Virus genome (UHGV): UHGV-0064133
Length of the DNA stretch: 14,317 nt
Strand: one strand, 5' to 3'
Source of the DNA: a virus
Position 1 is the stretch's first letter, and every line of letters begins with the position of its first letter. Both the position numbers and the translations under genes were made by a program. The notes below the pieces were generated by a model that ran no database searches, had not been told where the DNA came from, and worked only from the letters and a program-made list of their open reading frames with translations. This document shows, piece after piece, positions 4,636-12,838 of the stretch.

Positions 4636-4752
4636 GTTTTGCTCCGCTCATGTGTAATCAACACCATGTTAATTCATGATGTGGATTAAATCAACATTAT
4701 GGTGATGGAAAAAATCCACATGTTGTTTACCATGCATGGAGCGGAGGGTTTT
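4636..4752. promoter_or_regulatory. OR-like divergent operator/promoter region between cro-like and cI-like genes
   Basis: 117-bp AT-rich intergenic region with four copies of the 9-mer AATC[A/C]ACA (4657, 4689, 4714, and inverted at 4679-4687 as atgtggatt); candidate leftward promoter -35 TTGATT / -10 TAACAT on the minus strand (approx. 4694-4666). Confidence 0.55.
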
Positions 4753-5463
4753 ATGAGTAGCATTTCTGAAAGAATTAAATTTTTACTGGCAAGGGAAGGC
4801 TTGAAGCAGCGGGATTTGGCTGAGGCTTTGTCGACTAGCCCACAGACCGTCAACAACTGGATAAAAAGAGACGCGTTAAGTCGTGAGGCGGCGCAACAAA
4901 TATCTGAAAAATTCGGTTATTCTCTTGACTGGTTATTAAATGGAGAGGGTTCTCCAAAGAAGGATCTGGAGAGCAACATCCCGCCAGAGTCTGAGTGGGG
5001 AGTTGTTGATGCATGGGATAAAGACACCCCGCTTCCTGTTGATGAGGTTGAAGTGCCATTTCTTAAGGATATTGAATTTGCGTGTGGTGATGGTCGAGTT
5101 CAGTGCGAAGACCACAATGGATTTAAGCTGAGATTCTCCAAGGCAACGCTCAGAAGAGTGGGTGCAAATAGTGATGGTTCTGGAGTGCTTTGCTTTCCCG
5201 CTTCTGGTGACAGCATGGAGCCCGTTATTCCTGACGGCGCAACGGTAGCAGTCGATACAGGCAACAAGCGGATTATTGACGGCGAACTCTATGCTATTAA
5301 CCAGGGCGATTTAAAGCGCATAAAGCAGCTTTATCGAAAGCCTGGTGGGAAGCTATTAATACGAAGCATCAATCGCGATTATGACGATGAAGAGGCTGAT
5401 GAGGCAGATGTCGAGATAATCGGTTTTGTGTTCTGGTACTCGGTATTGCGATATCGCCGATAA
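4753..5463 (+). CDS. CI-like prophage repressor, XRE-type HTH plus S24 (LexA-like) autopeptidase domain
   Basis: N-terminal HTH (LKQRDLAEALSTSPQTVNNWIKR); C-terminal S24 motifs GDSMEP (Ser nucleophile) and ELYAINQGDLKRIKQL (Lys). Start set at ATG 4753 (RBS GGAGGG 4 nt upstream) rather than the track start at 4699. Confidence 0.85.
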   Translation: MSSISERIKFLLAREGLKQRDLAEALSTSPQTVNNWIKRDALSREAAQQISEKFGYSLDWLLNGEGSPKKDLESNIPPESEWGVVDAWDKDTPLPVDEVEVPFLKDIEFACGDGRVQCEDHNGFKLRFSKATLRRVGANSDGSGVLCFPASGDSMEPVIPDGATVAVDTGNKRIIDGELYAINQGDLKRIKQLYRKPGGKLLIRSINRDYDDEEADEADVEIIGFVFWYSVLRYRR

Positions 5464-5468
5464 TTTTA

Positions 5469-5581
5469 GTGGCCTGAAGAGACGTTTGGGTGATAAGAGA
5501 ATATCTGATAGTAGGCGTGGTTACTTTGCTCTCGGTTGTTGCGATCGTGCTTATGGTGGCCTGATGAGACGTTTGGGTGAT
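5469..5581. repeat. pair of 26-bp direct repeats (one mismatch) between the repressor gene and the KilA-N gene
   Basis: gtggcctgaagagacgtttgggtgat at 5469-5494 and gtggcctgatgagacgtttgggtgat at 5556-5581, 87 bp start to start. Confidence 0.6.
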
Positions 5582-5612
5582 TATTTTATTTTTCACAGCA
5601 ATAGGATGATTT

Positions 5613-6374
5613 ATGACACAGTTTCAACTTGCATTAATCGCCAGAGAAGTTGATGGAGAAGTCATCCATCTTCGCACCAAAGACGGTTACATCAATGCCA
5701 CCGCAATGTGCAAGTCTGCTGGGAAGCTACTTGCTGACTATACACGACTAAAAACAACGCAAGATTTTTTTGATGAATTATCCCGCGATATGGGGATTCC
5801 CATATCGGAATTAATTCAATCATTTAAAGGCGGAAGAGCAGAGAATCAAGGGACTTGGGTTCATCCAGACATCGCAATTAACTTAGCTCAGTGGCTATCT
5901 CCAAAATTTGCAGTGCAAGTATCGAGATGGGTGCGTGAGTGGATGTCAGGCGAAAGAGCGCCTGCCGAACTCCCTATCCACCTTAAGCGGTATATGACAA
6001 ACCGAGGCAGGGTTCCTCATACGCACTTTTCTATGCTTAATGAACTGACGTTTAACCTGGTTGCGCCACTTGAGCAGGCAGGATATACGCTGCCAGAAAA
6101 AATGGTCCCTGATATTTCAGAAGGTAGGGTTTTCTCGCAATGGCTTCGTGAAAACCGGGGTGTTGAGCCGAAGACGTTCCCAACATATAACCATGAGTAC
6201 CCAGATGGCCGGACATTCCCGGTACGTCTATACCCAAACGAATATCTTGCAGATTTCAAACAACACTTCAACGAAGTGTGGCTGCCTCAGTACGCTCCTA
6301 AATATTTTGCAGAACGAGACCAAAGGGCATTGACGTTGATTGAGAAAATCATGTTGCCTGACCTTGATTCCTAA
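5613..6374 (+). CDS. KilA-N domain protein with uncharacterised C-terminal domain (immunity-region cargo)
   Basis: N-terminal ~110 aa carry the KilA-N/APSES-like signature (YINATAMCKSAGK ... GTWVHPDIAINLAQWLSPKFAVQVSRWV); C-terminal ~140 aa (FPTYNHEYPDGRTFPVRLYPNEYLADFKQHF...) matches nothing I recognise. RBS AGGA; followed by a terminator hairpin. Confidence 0.7.
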   Translation: MTQFQLALIAREVDGEVIHLRTKDGYINATAMCKSAGKLLADYTRLKTTQDFFDELSRDMGIPISELIQSFKGGRAENQGTWVHPDIAINLAQWLSPKFAVQVSRWVREWMSGERAPAELPIHLKRYMTNRGRVPHTHFSMLNELTFNLVAPLEQAGYTLPEKMVPDISEGRVFSQWLRENRGVEPKTFPTYNHEYPDGRTFPVRLYPNEYLADFKQHFNEVWLPQYAPKYFAERDQRALTLIEKIMLPDLDS

Positions 6375-6382
6375 ATGTTATA

Positions 6383-6405
6383 CCCGGCCACCAAGCCGGG
6401 GTTTT
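6383..6405 (+). terminator. putative intrinsic terminator between convergent genes
   Basis: Stem cccggc (6383-6388) / gccggg (6395-6400), loop caccaa, followed by gtttta; lies 9 nt after the KilA-N stop and abuts the 3' end of the convergent small ORF. Confidence 0.5.
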
Positions 6406-6601
6406 ACTGCCCTTTCCGCACTATCTCAGCTGCATCCCTGTTCACACCCTTACCTATCACGTTTCCCGTTTCCTTCCGGTACCGTTCCAGCTTGTCGATG
6501 ATGTTTTGCTGGGTCATAGGTAAATCTGCCAGTGACAACTCCATGACCGCCCGCCCCATGGCGTGAACCATCATGTTCACTCTTTCTTCATCCAAGCCCA
6601 T
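6404..6601 (-). CDS. hypothetical small protein (65 aa) convergent with the KilA-N gene
   Basis: Strong RBS AAGGAG 6 nt upstream of ATG 6601-6599 on the minus strand; hydrophilic sequence MGLDEERVNMMVHAMGRAVMELSLADLPMTQQNIIDKLERYRKETG...; sits just inside the OL-like operator cluster. No family recognised. Confidence 0.5.
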   Translation of the reverse strand: MGLDEERVNMMVHAMGRAVMELSLADLPMTQQNIIDKLERYRKETGNVIGKGVNRDAAEIVRKGQ

Positions 6602-6650
6602 TACCCACTCCTTTTTGATGTTTTTTTCAGCATATCACTTATGCCACCAA

Positions 6651-6742
6651 AAAATAAATCAACATAAAAATCAACAAGAAACGATTAAATCAACAAAATA
6701 AATCCACAAGGTGTTGACCTATAAATCCACATGATGTTTAAT
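6651..6742. promoter_or_regulatory. OL-like operator cluster with rightward PL-like promoter
   Basis: Five direct copies of AAATC[A/C]ACA (6656, 6668, 6687, 6700, 6723); -35 TTGACC (6714-6719), 17-bp spacer, -10 TTTAAT (6737-6742) on the plus strand, with the last operator copy inside the spacer. Confidence 0.55.
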
Positions 6743-6785
6743 TATCCCATCGAAACGAAACATCGACAGCTGAGCGAAGTTAGCC

Positions 6786-6819
6786 AGCAGCGGACAGCAA
6801 GTCGCCTGCTTTTTAACAA
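6786..6819 (+). promoter_or_regulatory. promoter-proximal hairpin plus boxA-like motif (nut-like site or attenuator)
   Basis: Imperfect hairpin agcagcggac/gtcgcctgct (6786-6810, 8 of 10 bp) followed by TTTTTAA; overlapping TGCTTTTTAACAA (6807-6819) differs at one position from the rrn boxA consensus TGCTCTTTAACAA as I recall it. Confidence 0.4.
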
Positions 6820-7158
6820 CATGCAGATTTACAGCGTCAATGACCTGTTAAGACCCCTACACGTAAACGTGCTGTATCACCGGGTGCGATCCGGTCGGTG
6901 AGAGAGTATCCCCGCGCGAGAGCGAGAACGGCGTGAGAACGGGCAACACTGGCAGGGAGTTGGCGCTGACCAATACAGGGAATGTTATGGGATGTGGTGA
7001 AGGGTTCATGGACGGGAATATGTCGCACGTAAAGCGGCGAGGCCCGAGGAGCTATTGCCGAAGATAAGTAGGCCGAATCGGGTCGAAATGGGTCTCCCAC
7101 CTACCACATCGCCAAAGCATTTCTCCCGCATCAGCGGGTAACGACAGAGGGTAAGGGG

Positions 7159-8010: not shown

Positions 8011-8095
8011 ATAGCAGTCCTGAAATATGAAATGAAAAATTCGCCATTAATTTGGCGCGGCTTCTTACACCCTTAATTTAACAACTGGAGATTTT

Positions 8096-8383
8096 ATGGA
8101 AATCGTAAAAATCGAAATGAACCTGAAAGCAGTGAATAAAGAAGTGGCTGCATTCAACTGCGAGAAGAAAGTATCAGGCGTTATTCACTCAACTACAAAC
8201 GGTGAAACAACAGTCATTCTCGACGGTGGCTATGTGCTTGGCAAGTTTGATTGCCCGCACTGCGCCATTGAGGAGATCAGCTTGCTGGCACTCAAAATCA
8301 GCGATAGCGATTACGCCGGCTGGGGAACCTACCGTACATACAAGCAAGATTTTATGAATGAGGCGATCGTAGCCGTCAGTTAA
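8096..8383 (+). CDS. hypothetical protein (95 aa), immediately upstream of recE-like gene
   Basis: RBS GGAG upstream of the ATG; contains a CPHC motif; occupies the racC position of Rac-like prophages. No family assignment. Confidence 0.5.
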   Translation: MEIVKIEMNLKAVNKEVAAFNCEKKVSGVIHSTTNGETTVILDGGYVLGKFDCPHCAIEEISLLALKISDSDYAGWGTYRTYKQDFMNEAIVAVS

Positions 8384-8523
8384 GCGAAAGCCCACCGAAG
8401 TGGGCCCGCCATGTCCGGCCTCACCGACCAAAGTTACACCGGAAACAACATTAAAACCAAAGTTAACCCAATGGGCGCTATCAATGGTCCGGGGATTCTA
8501 ACACCCAAAAAAGAGGATCTCAC

Positions 8524-11433
8524 ATGGAATTTTTCCATCTGATAAAAGCCAGTCAGAAGTCTGGCAAGAAAGATGCAGTGATTTGGTTCACTGCGAAAAG
8601 TGTAGCGCGCGCCAATCTCCAACTCGATGTGGCACTGGAAGAAGCCGGAATTGAAGAAACTGGCCGCGGTAAAGATTATGCCAAACCAATCCGCACCGAT
8701 TTCCCGGTATATGACGACCTGCCGGAAGAAGGCGCAGTGGATTACACCTGGTGCGAACGCTACGAACTGCAGAACGATGACCGCACCTGGCTGCCAAAAG
8801 TCACAGCTGAAAACTCTGACGAGAAAACGGCTCAGACCGTTGATAGTCACATAACTACTGAGTCAACGCTGCCAGAAACCGCTGGCATCACGCTGGACGA
8901 ACACGACGACGACTCAACCCTCTACCCGGTAGTGCAGATGCCGTTTCGTAAGCAACTGCTTTCCCAGTTCACCGCCGACGAACTGCGCCACCACGTAACC
9001 CACGAAGAGTACGAAGCTATCGGCGCGCTGGAGATGGACACTGATAACAGTTACGTCCAGAACTTGCTGTTAGCTGCTGAGAACTGCCCGGAAGTGAAGG
9101 GTTACGACACCAAAGACCTGTGGCGCTACACCGATGCCATTCGCAAAGTGTTCAGCCAGGACAAGCGTCACGAACTCGCGCTGGTACTCCGTTTCACCAG
9201 AATGTGGGCGGCGACTGATTACATTGACCGTGGCATCCTGGCGCGTGAATGGGCCGCCGGTAATCGCATCAGTAGTGTGCAGCGTACTGATTCCGGCACT
9301 AATGCCGACGGCGGTTACGTCACTGACCGTGGACCTGACGCACACCACACACTGGACACTCTCGATTTAGAGATTGCGTGTGCCCTTCTGCCTATGGACT
9401 TCAACCACTTCGAGATCCCGGGCAGCATTCTTCGTCGCGCTAAAGAAATCGTGACCAAAAAAGAAGAACCATGGAAATCATGGAGCAACATCCTGCGCAA
9501 TCAGCCAGGCGTTCTGGGTGTTAACCGCACGGCTATTTTTAACCTGGTACGTATCGCACCGGAAAATATTCATTTAACTCCTGTCGCTCACCTGGAATTT
9601 GTTAACCAGACCATGACAGCCGCGTTCAATTCCGCGGTCGAGTTATTGCCGTTGCATGAGGCTGAACCCGCAGCACAGGAAATTCCCCAACCTGAAGGTA
9701 AGGAGTCTCCGCGCAAATCCTTCTGCACTCACGAAGAGAACCTGCAACGCGTGCGTGAAGAAGGAGCACGCCGCCGCGCAGAGGAAGCGGCAGCACAACC
9801 GCAGAAAGTCGAACAAGAACTGGTTAAAAATGTCGGCAACGGAATATTCGACGTTACGGCTTTGCTGCAGAACTCAGCAACTCATGGCACGAAAAAGGCT
9901 ACGGAGACCACCAGCAATGTGCAGGTTCAAGAAACTGTCAGTGATGAAAAACAAGCTGGTGATGAAGTACAGCCAGGCGAAAGCAGTCTGGAGTCTGGTG
10001 AAGAGTCAGATACCAGCCAGAAGGACGATGTAGACCAGAATACGGATTCTGTCGCCAAAAATAGCGATTCTGTAAGCCAAACCGAACCAGTTGCAGCACA
10101 AACCGAGCCAGAAGCGCAATCTGACGAACCAGCTGTTGTTTATCCCGCTTATTTCGAGCCAGGCCGCTATGAAGGGCTGCCAAACGAGGTTTACCACGCC
10201 GCCAACGGCATCAGCTCAACCCAGGTGAAAGATGCGCGCGTTTCGCTGATGTACTTCAATGCGCGCCACGTAGAGAAAACCATCGTCAAAGAGCGCTCAG
10301 CGGTGCTGGACATGGGCAACTTGGTGCATGCGCTGGCGTTGCAGCCTGAACTACTGGACGCAGAATTCAGCGTTGAACCGGTGATCCCTGAAGGCGCATT
10401 CACAACGGCCGCGACCCTGCGCGCCTTTATCGATGAGCACAATGCCAGCCTGCCGGCGCTGCTGTCTGCCGACGACATCAAGGTGTTACTGGAAGAGTAC
10501 AACGCCACCCTGCCGCCGCAGGTTCCGCTTGGCGCTAACCTGGAAGAAACGGCACAGAACTATATGGCGCTGCCAGCTGACTTCCAGCGTATTGATGGTG
10601 ACCAGAAGCAGACGGCGACGGCAATGAAGGCATGCATTAAAGAGTACAACGCCACCCTGCCGCCGCCGGTTAAAACCAGCGGCAGCCGTGACGCGCTGCT
10701 GGAGCAGTTGGCAATCATCAACCCTGACCTTGTGGCTCAGGAAGCACAGAAACCGGCACCACTGAAAGTGTCCGGTACCAAAGCAGACATGATCCAGGCC
10801 GTGAAGGCAGTCAAACCAGATGCCGTATTTGCCGACGAACTGCTGGATGCCTGGCGCGATAACCCGGAAGGAAAAGTGCTGGTCACCCGCCAGCAGCTGA
10901 GCACCGCGCTGAATATTCAAAAAGCGCTTCTGGCACACCCGACCGCCGGCATGCTGCTGACCCACCCTAGCCGAGCCGTTGAGGTGAGCTACTTTGGTTT
11001 TGACGAGGAGACGGGCTTGGAAGTTCGTGTGCGCCCTGACCTTGAGATCGACCTGGATGGCGTGCGTATAGGTGCAGACCTGAAAACCATCAGCATGTGG
11101 AATGTTAAGCAGGAAAGCCTGCGCGCCAGGCTACACCGGGAAATTATTGAACGTGATTATCACCTGAGCGCGGCTATGTACTGCGAAACCGCAGCGCTGG
11201 ATCAGTTCTTCTGGATTTTCGTCAACAAAGACGAGAACTACCACTGGATCGCCATCATCGAGGCATCCGCTGAACTACTGGAGCTGGGTATGCTCGAGTA
11301 CCGCAAAGCGATGCGCAATATCGCAACCGGATTCGACACAGGTGAATGGCCAGCGCCAATCACTGCTGACTACACCGACGAACTGAACGACTTCGACCTG
11401 CGCCGCCTTGAAGCGCTGCGTACTCAGGCATAA
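8524..11433 (+). CDS. recE: RecE-like exodeoxyribonuclease VIII (large 5'-3' dsDNA exonuclease with C-terminal PD-(D/E)XK domain)
   Basis: N-terminal DAVIWFTAKS...FPVYDDLPEEGAVDYTWCERYEL and DYIDRGILAREWAAGNRISSVQRTDSGTNADGGYVTDRG match what I recall of E. coli RecE; C-terminal RPDLEIDLDGVRIGADLKT fits the PD-(D/E)XK nuclease motif; RBS AAGAGGA. Confidence 0.8.
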   Translation: MEFFHLIKASQKSGKKDAVIWFTAKSVARANLQLDVALEEAGIEETGRGKDYAKPIRTDFPVYDDLPEEGAVDYTWCERYELQNDDRTWLPKVTAENSDEKTAQTVDSHITTESTLPETAGITLDEHDDDSTLYPVVQMPFRKQLLSQFTADELRHHVTHEEYEAIGALEMDTDNSYVQNLLLAAENCPEVKGYDTKDLWRYTDAIRKVFSQDKRHELALVLRFTRMWAATDYIDRGILAREWAAGNRISSVQRTDSGTNADGGYVTDRGPDAHHTLDTLDLEIACALLPMDFNHFEIPGSILRRAKEIVTKKEEPWKSWSNILRNQPGVLGVNRTAIFNLVRIAPENIHLTPVAHLEFVNQTMTAAFNSAVELLPLHEAEPAAQEIPQPEGKESPRKSFCTHEENLQRVREEGARRRAEEAAAQPQKVEQELVKNVGNGIFDVTALLQNSATHGTKKATETTSNVQVQETVSDEKQAGDEVQPGESSLESGEESDTSQKDDVDQNTDSVAKNSDSVSQTEPVAAQTEPEAQSDEPAVVYPAYFEPGRYEGLPNEVYHAANGISSTQVKDARVSLMYFNARHVEKTIVKERSAVLDMGNLVHALALQPELLDAEFSVEPVIPEGAFTTAATLRAFIDEHNASLPALLSADDIKVLLEEYNATLPPQVPLGANLEETAQNYMALPADFQRIDGDQKQTATAMKACIKEYNATLPPPVKTSGSRDALLEQLAIINPDLVAQEAQKPAPLKVSGTKADMIQAVKAVKPDAVFADELLDAWRDNPEGKVLVTRQQLSTALNIQKALLAHPTAGMLLTHPSRAVEVSYFGFDEETGLEVRVRPDLEIDLDGVRIGADLKTISMWNVKQESLRARLHREIIERDYHLSAAMYCETAALDQFFWIFVNKDENYHWIAIIEASAELLELGMLEYRKAMRNIATGFDTGEWPAPITADYTDELNDFDLRRLEALRTQA
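10435..10666 (+). repeat. in-frame internal repeats within the recE-like gene
   Basis: Exact 25-bp repeat gagtacaacgccaccctgccgccgc at 10495-10519 and 10642-10666 (147 bp apart, 49 codons), plus a degenerate copy gagcacaatgccagcctgccggcgc at 10435-10459; peptide-level repeats EHNASLPA / EYNATLPP / EYNATLPP. Confidence 0.65.
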
Positions 11434-11438
11434 GGGGA

Positions 11439-12557
11439 ATGATGATGGAAAACACGAATATCGTAACCGCTGAGCAGCAGACTCCAAACACGATCTCAGC
11501 CAGCAATGCCATTTTCAACGTGCAGGCTTTAACCCAGCTTCAGTCTGTCGCCGGGTTGATGGCACAGGCAGCCGTAACGGTGCCTGAGCACCTCCGCGGC
11601 AATCCGGCAGACTGCATGGCCATCATCATGCAGGCGATGCAGTGGGGTATGAACCCTTACGCCGTGGCGCAAAAGACGCACCTGGTTAACGGTGTCCTGG
11701 GATACGAAGCGCAACTGGTTAATGCGGTGATCTCCAGCTCAAACGCCATCGTTGGCCGCTTTCACTATGAGTACGAGGGCGACTGGTCGAAATGTGCCAG
11801 CAGCCGCGAGATAACCGTTAAAAAGCCTGCGAAAGGTGGCGGGACGTACGACAAGAAAGAAATGGTACGCGGTTGGGAAAGTGCTGATGAACAAGGACTG
11901 TCGGTACGGGTAGGTGCCGTTATTCGCGGTGAAAGTGATATCACCTGGGGAGAGCCTGTTTTCCTCTCCAGCGTAATCACACGTAATTCTCCACTTTGGG
12001 TATCAAACCCGAAACAGCAGATCGCTTATCTGGCACTCAAATACTGGGCGCGCCTGTATTGCCCTGCAGTTGTTCTTGGTGTGTACACCCCTGATGAGAT
12101 TGAACAGCGCACAGAAAAAGAGATCAACCCAACGCCGCAACGCGTTAGCCTGGCTGATATCTCAGGTGACACCGTCACAACCACGCAAAGCGCACAGGAA
12201 TCGTCGGTAAATGTCGACTCTCTTGCCGATGATTTCCGCGAACGCATCGAATCTGCTCAGGACGTGGATAGCGCCAAATCGCTGCGTGCCGACATTGAAA
12301 CGGCGAAAGCTACGCTGGGATCCGCACTATTCACCGAGCTGAAAAACAAAGCCGTAAAGCGTTATTACCTAGTGGATGCACGCAACAAGGTTGAGGAGGC
12401 TATTAAATCCCTGCCCCAGCCCGACGAGCCGCATGCAGCCGAACGGTTCGCTGAAGCCGAGCGCATGCTTGCATCTTCAAAGCGTCACTTAGGCGATGAA
12501 CTGCACGATCAATTCAGCATCACCCTGGCGGATATGAAACCGGAATACGTGGCCTGA
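11439..12557 (+). CDS. RecT/Redbeta(Bet)-family single-strand annealing protein (probable)
   Basis: Directly downstream of the recE-like gene (5-nt gap); segment NPADCMAIIMQAMQWGMNPYAVAQKTHLVNGVLGYEAQ resembles the Redbeta/RecT core (compare lambda Bet DAQFIALLIVANQYGLNPWTKEIYAFP); three consecutive ATGs at the start, true start may be 11442 or 11445. Confidence 0.6.
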   Translation: MMMENTNIVTAEQQTPNTISASNAIFNVQALTQLQSVAGLMAQAAVTVPEHLRGNPADCMAIIMQAMQWGMNPYAVAQKTHLVNGVLGYEAQLVNAVISSSNAIVGRFHYEYEGDWSKCASSREITVKKPAKGGGTYDKKEMVRGWESADEQGLSVRVGAVIRGESDITWGEPVFLSSVITRNSPLWVSNPKQQIAYLALKYWARLYCPAVVLGVYTPDEIEQRTEKEINPTPQRVSLADISGDTVTTTQSAQESSVNVDSLADDFRERIESAQDVDSAKSLRADIETAKATLGSALFTELKNKAVKRYYLVDARNKVEEAIKSLPQPDEPHAAERFAEAERMLASSKRHLGDELHDQFSITLADMKPEYVA

Positions 12558-12595
12558 CGAGACCGGGAGGGGTAACCCTCCCTCAAGGAGATTAT

Positions 12596-12838
12596 ATGCG
12601 ACTGATCAATCGAGGAAGTAAGCAATCACCTTTAGCTCGCCAAGCATGCGACATCGCGCTGGCAGCTCACTTGCAAACATATGGCGACTATGGGCGAAGC
12701 AAGATGAAAGAGACTTATACGGTGAAGGTTGAAGGCGTGAAAGTCTGGGATGAGCGTTTGAACCGAAAGGCTACCTACGTGGCCACAGCGATGACCGGCA
12801 TGCGCCGTCTCCGCTCCCTGCCCGGGCAGGTTGGTTGA
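12596..12838 (+). CDS. hypothetical protein (80 aa)
   Basis: Strong RBS AAGGAG 5 nt upstream of the ATG; preceded by a GC hairpin (12565-12582); no family recognised. Confidence 0.5.
   Translation: MRLINRGSKQSPLARQACDIALAAHLQTYGDYGRSKMKETYTVKVEGVKVWDERLNRKATYVATAMTGMRRLRSLPGQVG

What the first reader, a model, noticed from the sequence alone, without database searches (positions are those of the whole stretch)
8524..12557. Recombination module pairs a RecE-like exonuclease with a Redbeta-like annealing protein
The 969-aa exonuclease resembles Rac RecE at its N-terminus and nuclease domain, but the downstream 372-aa partner looks closer to the Redbeta/Bet branch than to E. coli RecT and has a long C-terminal extension. 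Such mixed exonuclease/annealase pairings are of interest for recombineering and suggest modular exchange.
Basis: partly seen in the sequence, partly recalled or inferred. Interest (0 to 1): 0.4.

Follow-up and report, generated by a model that had tools for sequence, protein, structure and literature searches.

The report
Gifsy-type RecE/RecT prophage recombination module
This is an ordinary, already catalogued phage recombination gene pair: a RecE-family DNA-end exonuclease followed by its usual strand-annealing partner, as in Salmonella Gifsy prophages and E. coli phage mEp237, not an unusual hybrid.

Summary
Both ORFs are real: 8524-11433 (969 aa) and 11439-12557 (372 aa; the likely start is 11445, giving 370 aa). 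The first has the RecE architecture, with an Exonuc_VIII N-terminal domain, a PD-(D/E)XK nuclease domain and conserved catalytic residues. The second is a RecT/Redbeta-superfamily annealase (PF03837, 125 bits) with a conserved, predicted helical extension of about 140 aa at the C-terminus.

The pairing is not unusual. The DNA is 99.7% identical to phage mEp237. The proteins are 61% and 71% identical to Gifsy-2 RecE and RecT. Both exact sequences are already in NCBI. In 73 of 74 species genomes, this annealase type sits just downstream of the same nuclease domain.

One extra observation is suggestive only. Across the subfamily, the class of C-terminal region tracks the class of nuclease partner, and the class found beside YqaJ/lambda-Exo nucleases is homologous to the Redbeta C-terminal domain. 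This fits a swappable partner-binding adaptor.

Verdict: already known, low interest.

The parts
8524..11433 (+). recE-like gene (969 aa), RecE-family 5'-3' dsDNA exonuclease
   Evidence: ORF found. Pfam PF06630 (aa 4-181, 9e-22) and PF12684 (aa 792-944, 5.6e-10), the same architecture as Rac RecE. PHROG 607 scores 1191 bits. 61% identical to Gifsy-2 RecE over the full length. The exact sequence is in NCBI as 'RecE family exodeoxyribonuclease'.
8530..9618 (+). RecE N-terminal region (aa 3-365; the Exonuc_VIII domain PF06630 covers aa 4-181), function unknown
   Evidence: 28% identity to Rac RecE aa 6-351, E=2e-41. This region is shuffled independently of the nuclease domain and is absent from 12 of 74 related loci.
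9631..10143 (+). Acidic, low-complexity, hypervariable linker of RecE (aa ~370-540)
   Evidence: Seen in the translation. Only 24-59% identity or no match in most of the 74 orthologous loci (up to 82% in two of them), while the flanking domains are conserved.
10144..11430 (+). PD-(D/E)XK nuclease domain of RecE (aa 541-969). Predicted catalytic residues are H601 (10324-10326), D838 (11035-11037), D852 (11077-11079) and K854 (11083-11085).
   Evidence: Alignment to Rac RecE and to PDB 3H4R, with motif positions. This domain is 53-99% identical in 73 of 74 loci that carry this annealase type.
10441..10893 (+). Insertion of about 150 aa in the nuclease domain relative to Rac RecE, with three E(H/Y)NA(S/T)LP repeats and two weakly SAP-like motifs
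   Evidence: Self-comparison. Multiple alignment shows Rac RecE and minimal RecEs lack it and some orthologues keep only about 40 aa. The SAP match is sub-threshold only (E=0.029).
11445..12557 (+). recT-like gene, a single-strand annealing protein of the RecT/Redbeta superfamily. It is 370 aa from ATG 11445, or 372 aa if ATG 11439 is used.
11553..12122 (+). Annealing (DNA-binding) domain, aa 39-228 in 372-aa numbering
   Evidence: Pfam envelope. It is the conserved core of the subfamily; invariant or near-invariant residues include W187, Q194, Y197, W203 and G214. The beta-sheet core of the model has pLDDT 76-85.
12207..12554 (+). C-terminal helical domain (aa ~257-372), the proposed partner-binding adaptor. 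It is preceded by a low-confidence linker at aa 229-256.
   Evidence: Five predicted helices at pLDDT about 87. Conserved among orthologues, ending in ...DMKPEYV. No family or PDB match. A C-terminal region (35-190 aa in the representatives examined) follows the annealing domain across the subfamily but falls into many unlinked sequence classes, and these classes track the nuclease type.
12565..12582 (+). GC-rich hairpin (GGGAGGG-GTAA-CCCTCCC) between recT and the next gene. It has no T-tract, so it is not a typical intrinsic terminator.
   Evidence: Read directly from the sequence. Not reported as a terminator by the scan.

Best explanation
The region is the recombination (SynExo) module of the early-left operon of a phi80/mEp237-like lambdoid prophage of E. 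coli. It is a Gifsy-type recE-recT pair.

Proposed mechanism:
1. After derepression, RecE binds double-stranded DNA ends. Its C-terminal PD-(D/E)XK domain digests the 5'-ended strand, leaving a 3' single-stranded tail.
2. The downstream annealase coats that tail through its N-terminal Redbeta/RecT-fold domain. It anneals the tail to complementary single-stranded DNA, either another resected end or the lagging-strand template. This gives RecA-independent recombination.
3. The C-terminal helical domain of the annealase is inferred to dock it onto its cognate nuclease (and possibly SSB), as the Redbeta C-terminal domain docks onto lambda Exo.

What is shown here: gene structure, domain architecture, conservation of catalytic residues, family placement, orthology to the Gifsy pair, and conserved synteny.

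What comes from the literature: Gifsy recET orthologues suppress recombination defects when derepressed; heterologous exonuclease/annealase pairs do not work; the Redbeta C-terminal domain binds lambda Exo.

What is inferred: enzymatic activities, loading of the annealase by the nuclease, and the adaptor role of the C-terminal domain.
For: - Near-identity to known elements. The DNA is 99.7% identical over 92% of the query to phage mEp237, where the genes are annotated exonuclease and recombinase RecT. It is 95% identical to HK225 and about 77% to Gifsy-1 and Gifsy-2. Similar DNA is present in 192 of 5426 complete E. coli genomes, annotated RecE family exodeoxyribonuclease and RecT family recombinase.
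- Orthology to Gifsy-2. The proteins are 61% (RecE) and 71% (RecT) identical to their Gifsy-2 counterparts and collinear over the full length.
- Functional evidence for the orthologues. Gifsy recET orthologues suppress recombination defects when activated (PMC3121763, citing Figueroa-Bossi 1997 and Lemire 2008).
- Domain content. PF06630 + PF12684 for the nuclease and PF03837 for the annealase. The catalytic H/D/D-x-K residues align with Rac RecE and PDB 3H4R.
- Conserved synteny. In 73 of 74 species-level genomes the ORF that ends just upstream of this annealase type carries the same nuclease domain (53-99% identity). None carries lambda Exo.
- Genomic context. cI-like S24 repressor, KilA-N protein, kil, ydaE, recE, recT, DUF4060, xis and int.
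- C-terminal domain as adaptor. The class of C-terminal region tracks the class of nuclease. The class found beside YqaJ nucleases is homologous to the Redbeta C-terminal domain (hhalign probability 81%, E=1.2e-5). The Redbeta C-terminal domain binds lambda Exo (PMC6393309).
Against: - No activity was measured for this exact pair.
- The annealase model is only moderately confident (mean pLDDT 64.7; the N-terminal helices are poor), and Foldseek found nothing.
- The NCBIfam RecE equivalog NF007259 scores 458 bits against a cut-off of 1269, so the nuclease is not an equivalog of Rac RecE.
- The adaptor role of the C-terminal domain rests on roughly five independent switches of C-terminal class on the N-domain tree. 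It is also confounded with host lineage, since GC is about 0.50 in one class and 0.61 in another.
- A Rac-type nuclease domain is partnered by two unrelated annealase C-termini, so a simple code based on the C-terminal domain is not universal.
Confidence: 0.9

Rival explanations
1. One reading: the locus is an unusual hybrid in which a Rac-type RecE has recently been joined to a Redbeta/Bet-branch annealase by modular exchange.
For: RecE keeps recognisable similarity to Rac RecE (E=2e-41), whereas the annealase has no BLAST similarity to Rac RecT (E=22) and a weak hit to Bet (E=2e-4). Profile and fold comparisons lean slightly towards Bet/Redbeta. Domain shuffling does occur in the family.
Against: The annealase fails the Bet model TIGR01913 entirely, although Rac RecT scores 23.5 bits on it. 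Cross-family scores are near zero in all directions, against 300-500 bits within a family. The C-terminal domain is not Redbeta-like (hhalign E=0.013, probability 3%). The same nuclease domain and annealase travel together in 73 of 74 species genomes and in Gifsy-1/2, mEp237 and HK225. The pair is therefore old and co-inherited, not a recent mix. The nuclease domain itself is only about 22-29% identical to Rac's, so both genes are comparably remote from the Rac pair.
Confidence: 0.07
2. The 372-aa protein is what many database entries call it, an 'enterohemolysin' (Ehly-type haemolysis determinant), and not a recombination protein.
For: Exact and near-identical sequences are named 'enterohemolysin' or 'putative enterohemolysin' in NCBI and UniRef. 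Klebsiella phage records say 'RecT family enterohemolysin'.
Against: A strong PF03837 match, a Redbeta-like fold and a tight operon with RecE all point to an annealase. [quoted passage not shown] 2002, title quoted in PMC4164713). The name is a historical artefact. That this family is the one Iyer et al. called EHAP1-like is inferred from the names and from PMC8093625. It was not checked against the EHAP1 sequence itself.
Confidence: 0.01
3. The module is a decaying remnant of a cryptic prophage and no longer functions.
For: The window may be prophage DNA. The gene just upstream (8032-8383) is annotated as a frameshifted pseudogene in identical genomes. Rac recET in K-12 is silent unless activated.
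Against: Both ORFs are intact with good ribosome-binding sites. Catalytic and family-invariant residues are kept. The DNA is 99.7% identical to that of an isolated phage, mEp237. The exact 370-aa sequence occurs on at least 1000 contigs, which argues for purifying selection.
Confidence: 0.02

Closest known systems
Gifsy-2 / Gifsy-1 prophage RecE (STM1009, 'sbcA') and RecT (STM1008) of Salmonella Typhimurium
   Same: Same two-gene order and spacing and the same domain architecture, including the nuclease-domain insertion and the annealase C-terminal domain. 61% and 71% protein identity over the full length. An isrB-type sRNA match lies just upstream of recE here; that isrB sits in the same position in Gifsy is recalled from memory and was not tested. 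Genetic evidence for the Gifsy pair is that it suppresses recB recombination defects when derepressed (PMC3121763).
   Different: The RecE N-terminal region and linker have diverged. The host prophage backbone differs: phi80/mEp237-like with a divergently oriented integrase, an S24 cI-type repressor and a KilA-N gene, rather than the Gifsy immunity region.
Enterobacteria phages mEp237 (gp31/gp30) and HK225
   Same: 99.7% and 95% nucleotide identity across recE-recT-DUF4060-xis, annotated exonuclease/RecE and RecT or DNA single-strand annealing protein.
   Different: Essentially none for the module. The window differs from mEp237 upstream of position ~8423 (mosaic early region).
Rac prophage RecE/RecT of E. 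coli K-12
   Same: Same operon logic (recE then recT, early-left operon with kil and ydaE upstream). Same RecE Pfam architecture, PF06630 + PF12684. Both annealases are in PF03837.
   Different: RecE is only 22-29% identical and lacks the insertion of about 150 aa in the nuclease domain. The annealase belongs to a different subfamily (TIGR00616 / PHROG 148 for Rac against PHROG 561 here) with no pairwise similarity. Rac RecT has a short C-terminal tail instead of a 140-aa helical domain.
Lambda Red: Exo (YqaJ fold) and Redbeta/Bet
   Different: The nuclease is of an unrelated type (RecE/DUF3799, not YqaJ) and lies upstream rather than downstream. The annealase fails the Bet model TIGR01913. 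Its C-terminal domain is not homologous to the Redbeta C-terminal domain.
EHAP1-like family of the RecT/Redbeta superfamily (Iyer, Koonin & Aravind 2002)
   Same: Described as a distinct third subgroup of the superfamily found in E. coli and Salmonella (PMC8093625). That matches what the profiles show here and the 'enterohemolysin' naming of homologues.
   Different: The subfamily is far larger than two genera: 5246 clusters at 50% identity with E<=1e-3.

Membership tests
RecE family (exodeoxyribonuclease VIII) | N-terminal Exonuc_VIII domain (PF06630) | tested here: met
   78.3 bits against a cut-off of 25, aa 4-181. Rac RecE and Gifsy-2 RecE hit the same model.
RecE family (exodeoxyribonuclease VIII) | C-terminal PD-(D/E)XK nuclease domain (PF12684/DUF3799) with the catalytic His, Asp and (D/E)-x-K | tested here: met
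   39.8 bits against a cut-off of 26. H601, D838, D852 and K854 align with the H/D/D-x-K motif of Rac RecE and 3H4R. Assignment of these motif residues as catalytic rests on prior knowledge of RecE.
RecE family (exodeoxyribonuclease VIII) | Equivalog of Rac RecE (NCBIfam NF007259 at or above its cut-off) | tested here: not met
   458.5 bits against a cut-off of 1269. The protein is a RecE-family member but not an equivalog of the Rac protein.
RecE family (exodeoxyribonuclease VIII) | Processive 5'-3' dsDNA exonuclease activity | not testable with these tools
   Needs biochemistry.
RecT/Redbeta superfamily (Pfam PF03837) | Match to the family model above the gathering score | tested here: met
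   125.5 bits against a cut-off of 24, aa 39-228. Lambda Bet scores 115.6 and Rac RecT 188.9 on the same model.
RecT/Redbeta superfamily (Pfam PF03837) | Redbeta/RecT-type annealing fold | tested here: met
RecT family proper (TIGR00616 / NF007351) | Match to the curated subfamily model | tested here: not met
   No hit at E<=1, whereas Rac RecT scores 415.7 bits. BLASTP against Rac RecT gives E=22. Cross-HMM median is about -1 bit.
Bet/Redbeta family (TIGR01913) | Match to the curated equivalog model | tested here: not met
   No hit at E<=1, whereas lambda Bet scores 169.5 bits. Only weak similarity otherwise: BLASTP 2e-4, hhalign E=1.5e-3 and cross-HMM medians of 3-6 bits.
Bet/Redbeta family (TIGR01913) | Redbeta-type C-terminal domain (the domain that binds lambda Exo) | tested here: not met
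   hhalign of this C-terminal domain family against the Bet C-terminal domain family gives probability 3.4%, E=0.013 over 17 columns. A different class of C-terminal region in the same subfamily does match (81%, E=1.2e-5).
Gifsy-type RecT / 'enterohemolysin' (EHAP1-like) subfamily (PHROG 561) | Full-length match to the subfamily profile and to Gifsy-2 RecT | tested here: met
   PHROG 561 at 553 bits, aa 2-371. 71% identity to Gifsy-2 RecT over 371 aa. A family HMM built from 138 representatives scores 472.8 bits.
Gifsy-type RecT / 'enterohemolysin' (EHAP1-like) subfamily (PHROG 561) | Identity with the EHAP1 protein used by Iyer et al. 2002 to name the family | not tested
The link is inferred from the 'enterohemolysin' names and the description in PMC8093625.
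SynExo two-component recombinase | Exonuclease and annealase genes adjacent in one operon | tested here: met
   5-11 nt between the genes on the same strand. The adjacency is conserved in 73 of 74 related genomes.
SynExo two-component recombinase | Specific physical complex between the two proteins | not testable with these tools
   Only indirect support, from co-variation of the C-terminal region with the nuclease.

The most novel reading that the evidence does not exclude
Within one annealase subfamily, whose annealing domains are 45-72% identical, the C-terminal region may act as an exchangeable adaptor cassette that specifies which nuclease the annealase works with. The classes of C-terminal region track the nuclease class without exception in the loci examined:
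- one class with minimal RecE (54 of 54 loci);
- one class with YqaJ/lambda-Exo-type nucleases (15 of 17 loci, none with RecE), and this class is homologous to the Redbeta C-terminal domain;
- this window's class with the Gifsy-type RecE nuclease domain (73 of 74 genomes).
If this holds, C-terminal regions could be swapped to build orthogonal or retargeted recombineering pairs. The window's 116-aa helical domain would then be a new fold type that binds RecE.
Probability: 0.5. Interest if true: 0.4.

Novelty: already known. Interest (0 to 1): 0.15.

Why it matters
The finding matters little as a discovery. The module, its annotation and even the exact protein sequences are already public, and the orthologous Gifsy pair has genetic evidence of function.

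Three practical points follow:
- The widespread "enterohemolysin" label on this annealase subfamily is a misnomer.
- "RecT" in annotations covers at least three mutually remote subfamilies, so choosing recombineering proteins by name is unsafe.
- The match between the annealase C-terminal region and the nuclease type suggests which domain boundaries to respect, or to swap, when engineering exonuclease/annealase pairs.

Tried and rejected
- Sequence searches of the annealase against PDB found nothing relevant, either as a single sequence or as a 23-sequence profile.
- The AF2 model itself is mediocre because the permitted alignment was shallow (70-99% identity). The N-terminal helices are not trustworthy.
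- Iyer et al. 2002 and Lemire et al. 2008 could not be read. Full-text searches for EHAP1 mostly returned an unrelated human cell line.
- The idea that the nuclease-domain insertion is the docking site for the annealase C-terminal domain was dropped. Orthologues with an 88%-identical annealase carry only about 40 aa of that insertion.
- The idea that the insertion is a SAP/HeH DNA-binding module has only a sub-threshold Pfam hit (E=0.029) and no PDB match.
- A three-clade tree of Bet, RecT and this family was not attempted, because an unrooted three-group tree carries no topological information. Profile-to-profile and cross-HMM scores were used instead.
- A chimeric nuclease-plus-C-terminal-domain structure prediction was considered but not run. 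The tool is monomer-only, restricted to window sequences and would have had no alignment.

Full report
**Observation**

The first has a GAGGA ribosome-binding site 6 nt upstream of its ATG.

The second gene begins with three consecutive ATGs. The GGGG of its Shine-Dalgarno sequence lies 1, 4 and 7 nt from them. Orthologues start at the third Met, and RefSeq annotation of near-identical genomes uses it too. The likely product is therefore 370 aa from 11445. Only 5-11 nt separate the two genes, so they form one operon.

**The exonuclease**

Pfam finds the Exonuc_VIII N-terminal domain (PF06630, aa 4-181, 9e-22) and the PDDEXK-like DUF3799 domain (PF12684, aa 792-944, 5.6e-10). Rac RecE and Gifsy-2 RecE have the same two-domain architecture.

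BLASTP against Rac RecE gives 28% identity over 379 N-terminal residues (E=2e-41), and 29% and 22% over the two halves of the nuclease domain. The only solved relative is the RecE nuclease domain, 3H4R.

The His and the D...D-x-K residues of the PD-(D/E)XK site are conserved, at H601, D838, D852 and K854. The NCBIfam equivalog model for Rac RecE is far from met (458 bits against 1269). The protein is therefore a RecE-family member but not an equivalog of the Rac enzyme.

Compared with Rac RecE, the nuclease domain carries an insertion of about 150 aa (aa ~640-790) containing three E(H/Y)NA(S/T)LP repeats. Some orthologues keep only about 40 aa of it. A SAP-domain match to this insertion is sub-threshold.

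**The annealase**

Residues 39-228 match Pfam RecT (PF03837) at 125.5 bits. Lambda Bet (115.6) and Rac RecT (188.9) match the same model, so PF03837 covers the whole RecT/Redbeta superfamily.

The curated subfamily models separate the three proteins:
- Rac RecT hits TIGR00616 (416 bits).
- Bet hits TIGR01913 (170 bits).
- The window protein hits neither at E<=1.

PHROGs agree: PHROG 561 for this protein, 252 for Bet and 148 for Rac RecT.

I built family alignments from database homologues and compared them.

| Comparison | hhalign score | hhalign E-value | Aligned columns | Median cross-family HMM score, bits |
|---|---|---|---|---|
| This family vs Bet | 31.7 | 1.5e-3 | 139 (the whole annealing domain) | 3-6 |
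| This family vs RecT | 21.8 | 0.042 | 67 | about -1 |
| Bet vs RecT | 24.2 | 0.014 | 129 | 1-2 |

Within a family, the HMM scores are 300-500 bits.

Against the "closer to Bet" reading, the curated Bet model scores Rac RecT at 23.5 bits and does not score this protein at all.

The robust conclusion is that this is a third subfamily, remote from both and marginally nearer Redbeta. It is large: 5246 representatives of 50%-identity clusters at E<=1e-3, and 539 at E<=1e-30.

Many members are named "enterohemolysin". This is a legacy of the phage-borne Ehly determinants, which do not encode haemolysins per se (Oscarsson et al. 2002, quoted in PMC4164713; background in PMC6784236). The family fits the "EHAP1-like" third subgroup of the RecT/Redbeta superfamily that Iyer et al. 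(2002) found in E. coli and Salmonella, as summarised in PMC8093625. I could not read the 2002 paper, so this equation is an inference.

**What the locus is**

The DNA is 99.7% identical to phage mEp237 over recE-recT-DUF4060-xis. There the genes are annotated "exonuclease" ("similar to gifsy-1 prophage RecE") and "recombinase RecT" ("similar to gifsy-2 prophage RecT"). It is 95% identical to HK225 and about 77% to Gifsy-1 and Gifsy-2.

Similar DNA occurs in 192 of 5426 complete E. coli genomes, in prophages next to kch. These carry the RefSeq names "RecE family exodeoxyribonuclease" and "RecT family recombinase". The proteins are 61% and 71% identical to Gifsy-2 RecE and RecT and collinear over the full length, including the insertion and the C-terminal domain.

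The exact 969-aa and 370/372-aa sequences are already in NCBI. The 370-aa form is on at least 1000 contigs.

The Gifsy recET orthologues are repressed in lysogens. When activated by mutation they suppress recombination defects (PMC3121763).

The surrounding genes form a lambdoid early-left region: an S24 cI-like repressor (4699-5463), a KilA-N protein (5613-6374), kil and ydaE homologues, then recE, recT, DUF4060 (12596-12838) and xis. The integrase is divergent (13074 to beyond the window end).

**Is the pairing mixed?**

I scanned one genome per species for relatives of the annealase (379 hits, the best 80 kept). In 74 loci there was an ORF ending just upstream of the annealase. In 73 of these, that ORF carries the window's nuclease domain at 53-99% identity, usually across all ~429 residues. 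None carries lambda Exo.

By contrast, the RecE N-terminal region ranges from 25 to 86% identity and is missing in 12 loci, and the acidic linker is hypervariable. One Salmonella locus (L085) has an N-terminal region 55% identical to Rac RecE joined to a nuclease domain 55% identical to the window's and only 26% identical to Rac's.

The stable unit is therefore [nuclease domain + annealase]. The RecE N-terminal part is shuffled independently. The pair in the window is the normal pair for this lineage, not an odd combination.

**The C-terminal extension**

In the subfamily representatives in which the end of the annealing domain could be located, a C-terminal region follows it (35-190 aa, in most cases 80-190 aa). 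Its sequence falls into dozens of classes that BLAST does not link.

In Pseudomonas lundensis (L079) the annealing domain is 73% identical to the window's. Its C-terminal region is unrelated, and the upstream gene is a 274-aa minimal RecE that is 54% identical to the Rac nuclease domain.

Among 80 viral contigs, the classes of C-terminal region track the nuclease partner (Pfam confirmation).

| C-terminal class | Neighbouring nuclease | Count |
|---|---|---|
| CTD0 | Minimal RecE (DUF3799), upstream | 54 of 54 loci |
| CTD1 | YqaJ/lambda-Exo-type (PF09588), upstream or downstream | 15 of 17 loci; none with RecE |
| CTD2 | RecE upstream in 5 of 6, plus a DUF1351 gene downstream in all 6 | 6 loci |

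The CTD1 profile is homologous to the C-terminal domain of Redbeta (hhalign probability 81%, E=1.2e-5). No other pair of classes is related, and the window's C-terminal domain matches none of them. The Redbeta C-terminal domain is the part that binds lambda Exo, and heterologous exonuclease/annealase pairs do not support recombination (PMC6393309).

This pattern suggests the C-terminal region is the nuclease-specific adaptor. The evidence is limited:
- On a neighbour-joining tree of the annealing domains, only about five independent switches of class are needed.
- The classes differ in GC content (0.50 against 0.61), so host lineage is confounded with class.
- Identities between annealing domains of different classes overlap those within a class, but only partly.
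- Rac-type nuclease domains are partnered by two unrelated annealase C-termini.

**Mechanism**

The mechanism is inferred from the families. After derepression of the early-left operon, RecE resects the 5' strand at double-stranded ends. The annealase is probably handed onto the emerging 3' tail through contact between its C-terminal domain and the nuclease. It then anneals the tail to complementary single-stranded DNA, giving RecA-independent single-strand-annealing recombination. Gene structure, domains, catalytic residues, synteny and orthology are shown here. Activities and the docking step are inferred.

**Verdict**

The "mixed pairing" reading does not hold. This is the well-known, correctly annotated Gifsy/mEp237-type RecET module.

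Novelty: already known. Interest: low.

Noticed in passing
window 8385-8482 (- strand): Rfam isrB (RF01386, an Hfq-binding Salmonella island sRNA) matches at 38.2 bits against a gathering score of 35, with both hairpins conserved. It lies in the gap just upstream of recE and antisense to the operon. A sigma-70-like promoter (GTGAGA-17-TAGAAT with an extended TG) sits on the minus strand at 8523-8495, just before the 5' end of the match. From memory, isrB lies next to the Gifsy recE ('sbcA') genes in Salmonella; I did not verify that here.
   Followed up: partly
window 10441-10893 (RecE aa ~640-790): The nuclease domain has an insertion of about 150 aa that Rac RecE and minimal RecEs lack. It holds three E(H/Y)NA(S/T)LP repeats and two 'SG(S/T)..(L/M)(L/I)' motifs with only a sub-threshold SAP-domain hit (E=0.029). 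Orthologues with an 88%-identical annealase keep only about 40 aa of it, so its length varies.
   Followed up: partly
databases (homologues of window 11439-12557): Many exact or near-identical copies of this annealase are named 'enterohemolysin' or 'putative enterohemolysin'. This misnomer is inherited from the phage-borne Ehly1/Ehly2 determinants, which reportedly act only by releasing ClyA.
   Followed up: partly
L085 (Salmonella enterica) and other loci L007-L086, the ORF upstream of the annealase: The RecE N-terminal region is mosaic with respect to the nuclease domain. In L085 the N-terminal region is 55% identical to Rac RecE, while the nuclease domain is 55% identical to the window's and 26% to Rac's. 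In 12 of 74 loci the upstream ORF has no detectable N-terminal region; most of these are short RecEs of 462-577 aa, and four are ORFs of only 136-206 aa.
   Followed up: partly
L079 (Pseudomonas lundensis), 5147-6924: A 274-aa minimal RecE, 54% identical to the Rac nuclease domain, overlaps the start of an annealase. The annealing domain of that annealase is 73% identical to the window's, but its C-terminal region is unrelated. This is a clear domain-level chimera relative to the window pair.
   Followed up: yes
viral loci L099, L100, L103, L104, L108, L109: Annealases of this subfamily with a third class of C-terminal region are followed by a DUF1351 (PF07083) coiled-coil gene of about 356 aa, in addition to an upstream minimal RecE in five of the six. 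The role of DUF1351 next to annealases is unknown.
   Followed up: no
window 8032-8383 (+): The gene directly upstream of recE is annotated in sequence-identical RefSeq genomes as a frameshifted 'DNA breaking-rejoining protein' pseudogene. In the window, an intact 95-aa ORF (8096-8383) with no Pfam match remains.
   Followed up: partly
window 5613-6374 (+) and 4699-5463 (+): A 253-aa KilA-N domain protein lies immediately downstream of the S24 (LexA/cI-like) repressor gene on the same strand. In a closely related prophage (L004), this position holds a YafO-family toxin-antitoxin pair instead, so it is a variable slot in the immunity region.
   Followed up: no
window 12565-12582 (+): A perfect 7-bp GC-rich hairpin (GGGAGGG GTAA CCCTCCC) lies between the recT stop and the ribosome-binding site of the DUF4060 gene. 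It has no T-tract. It may be an mRNA-stability or processing element.
   Followed up: no
proteins P0122, P0126, P0135, P0409: Some database proteins join the C-terminal part of this annealase, or a RecT domain, to long unrelated N-terminal sequence (456-756 aa). P0409 combines PF06630 with PF03837. These may be frameshift or fusion gene calls, or real RecE-RecT fusions.
   Followed up: no
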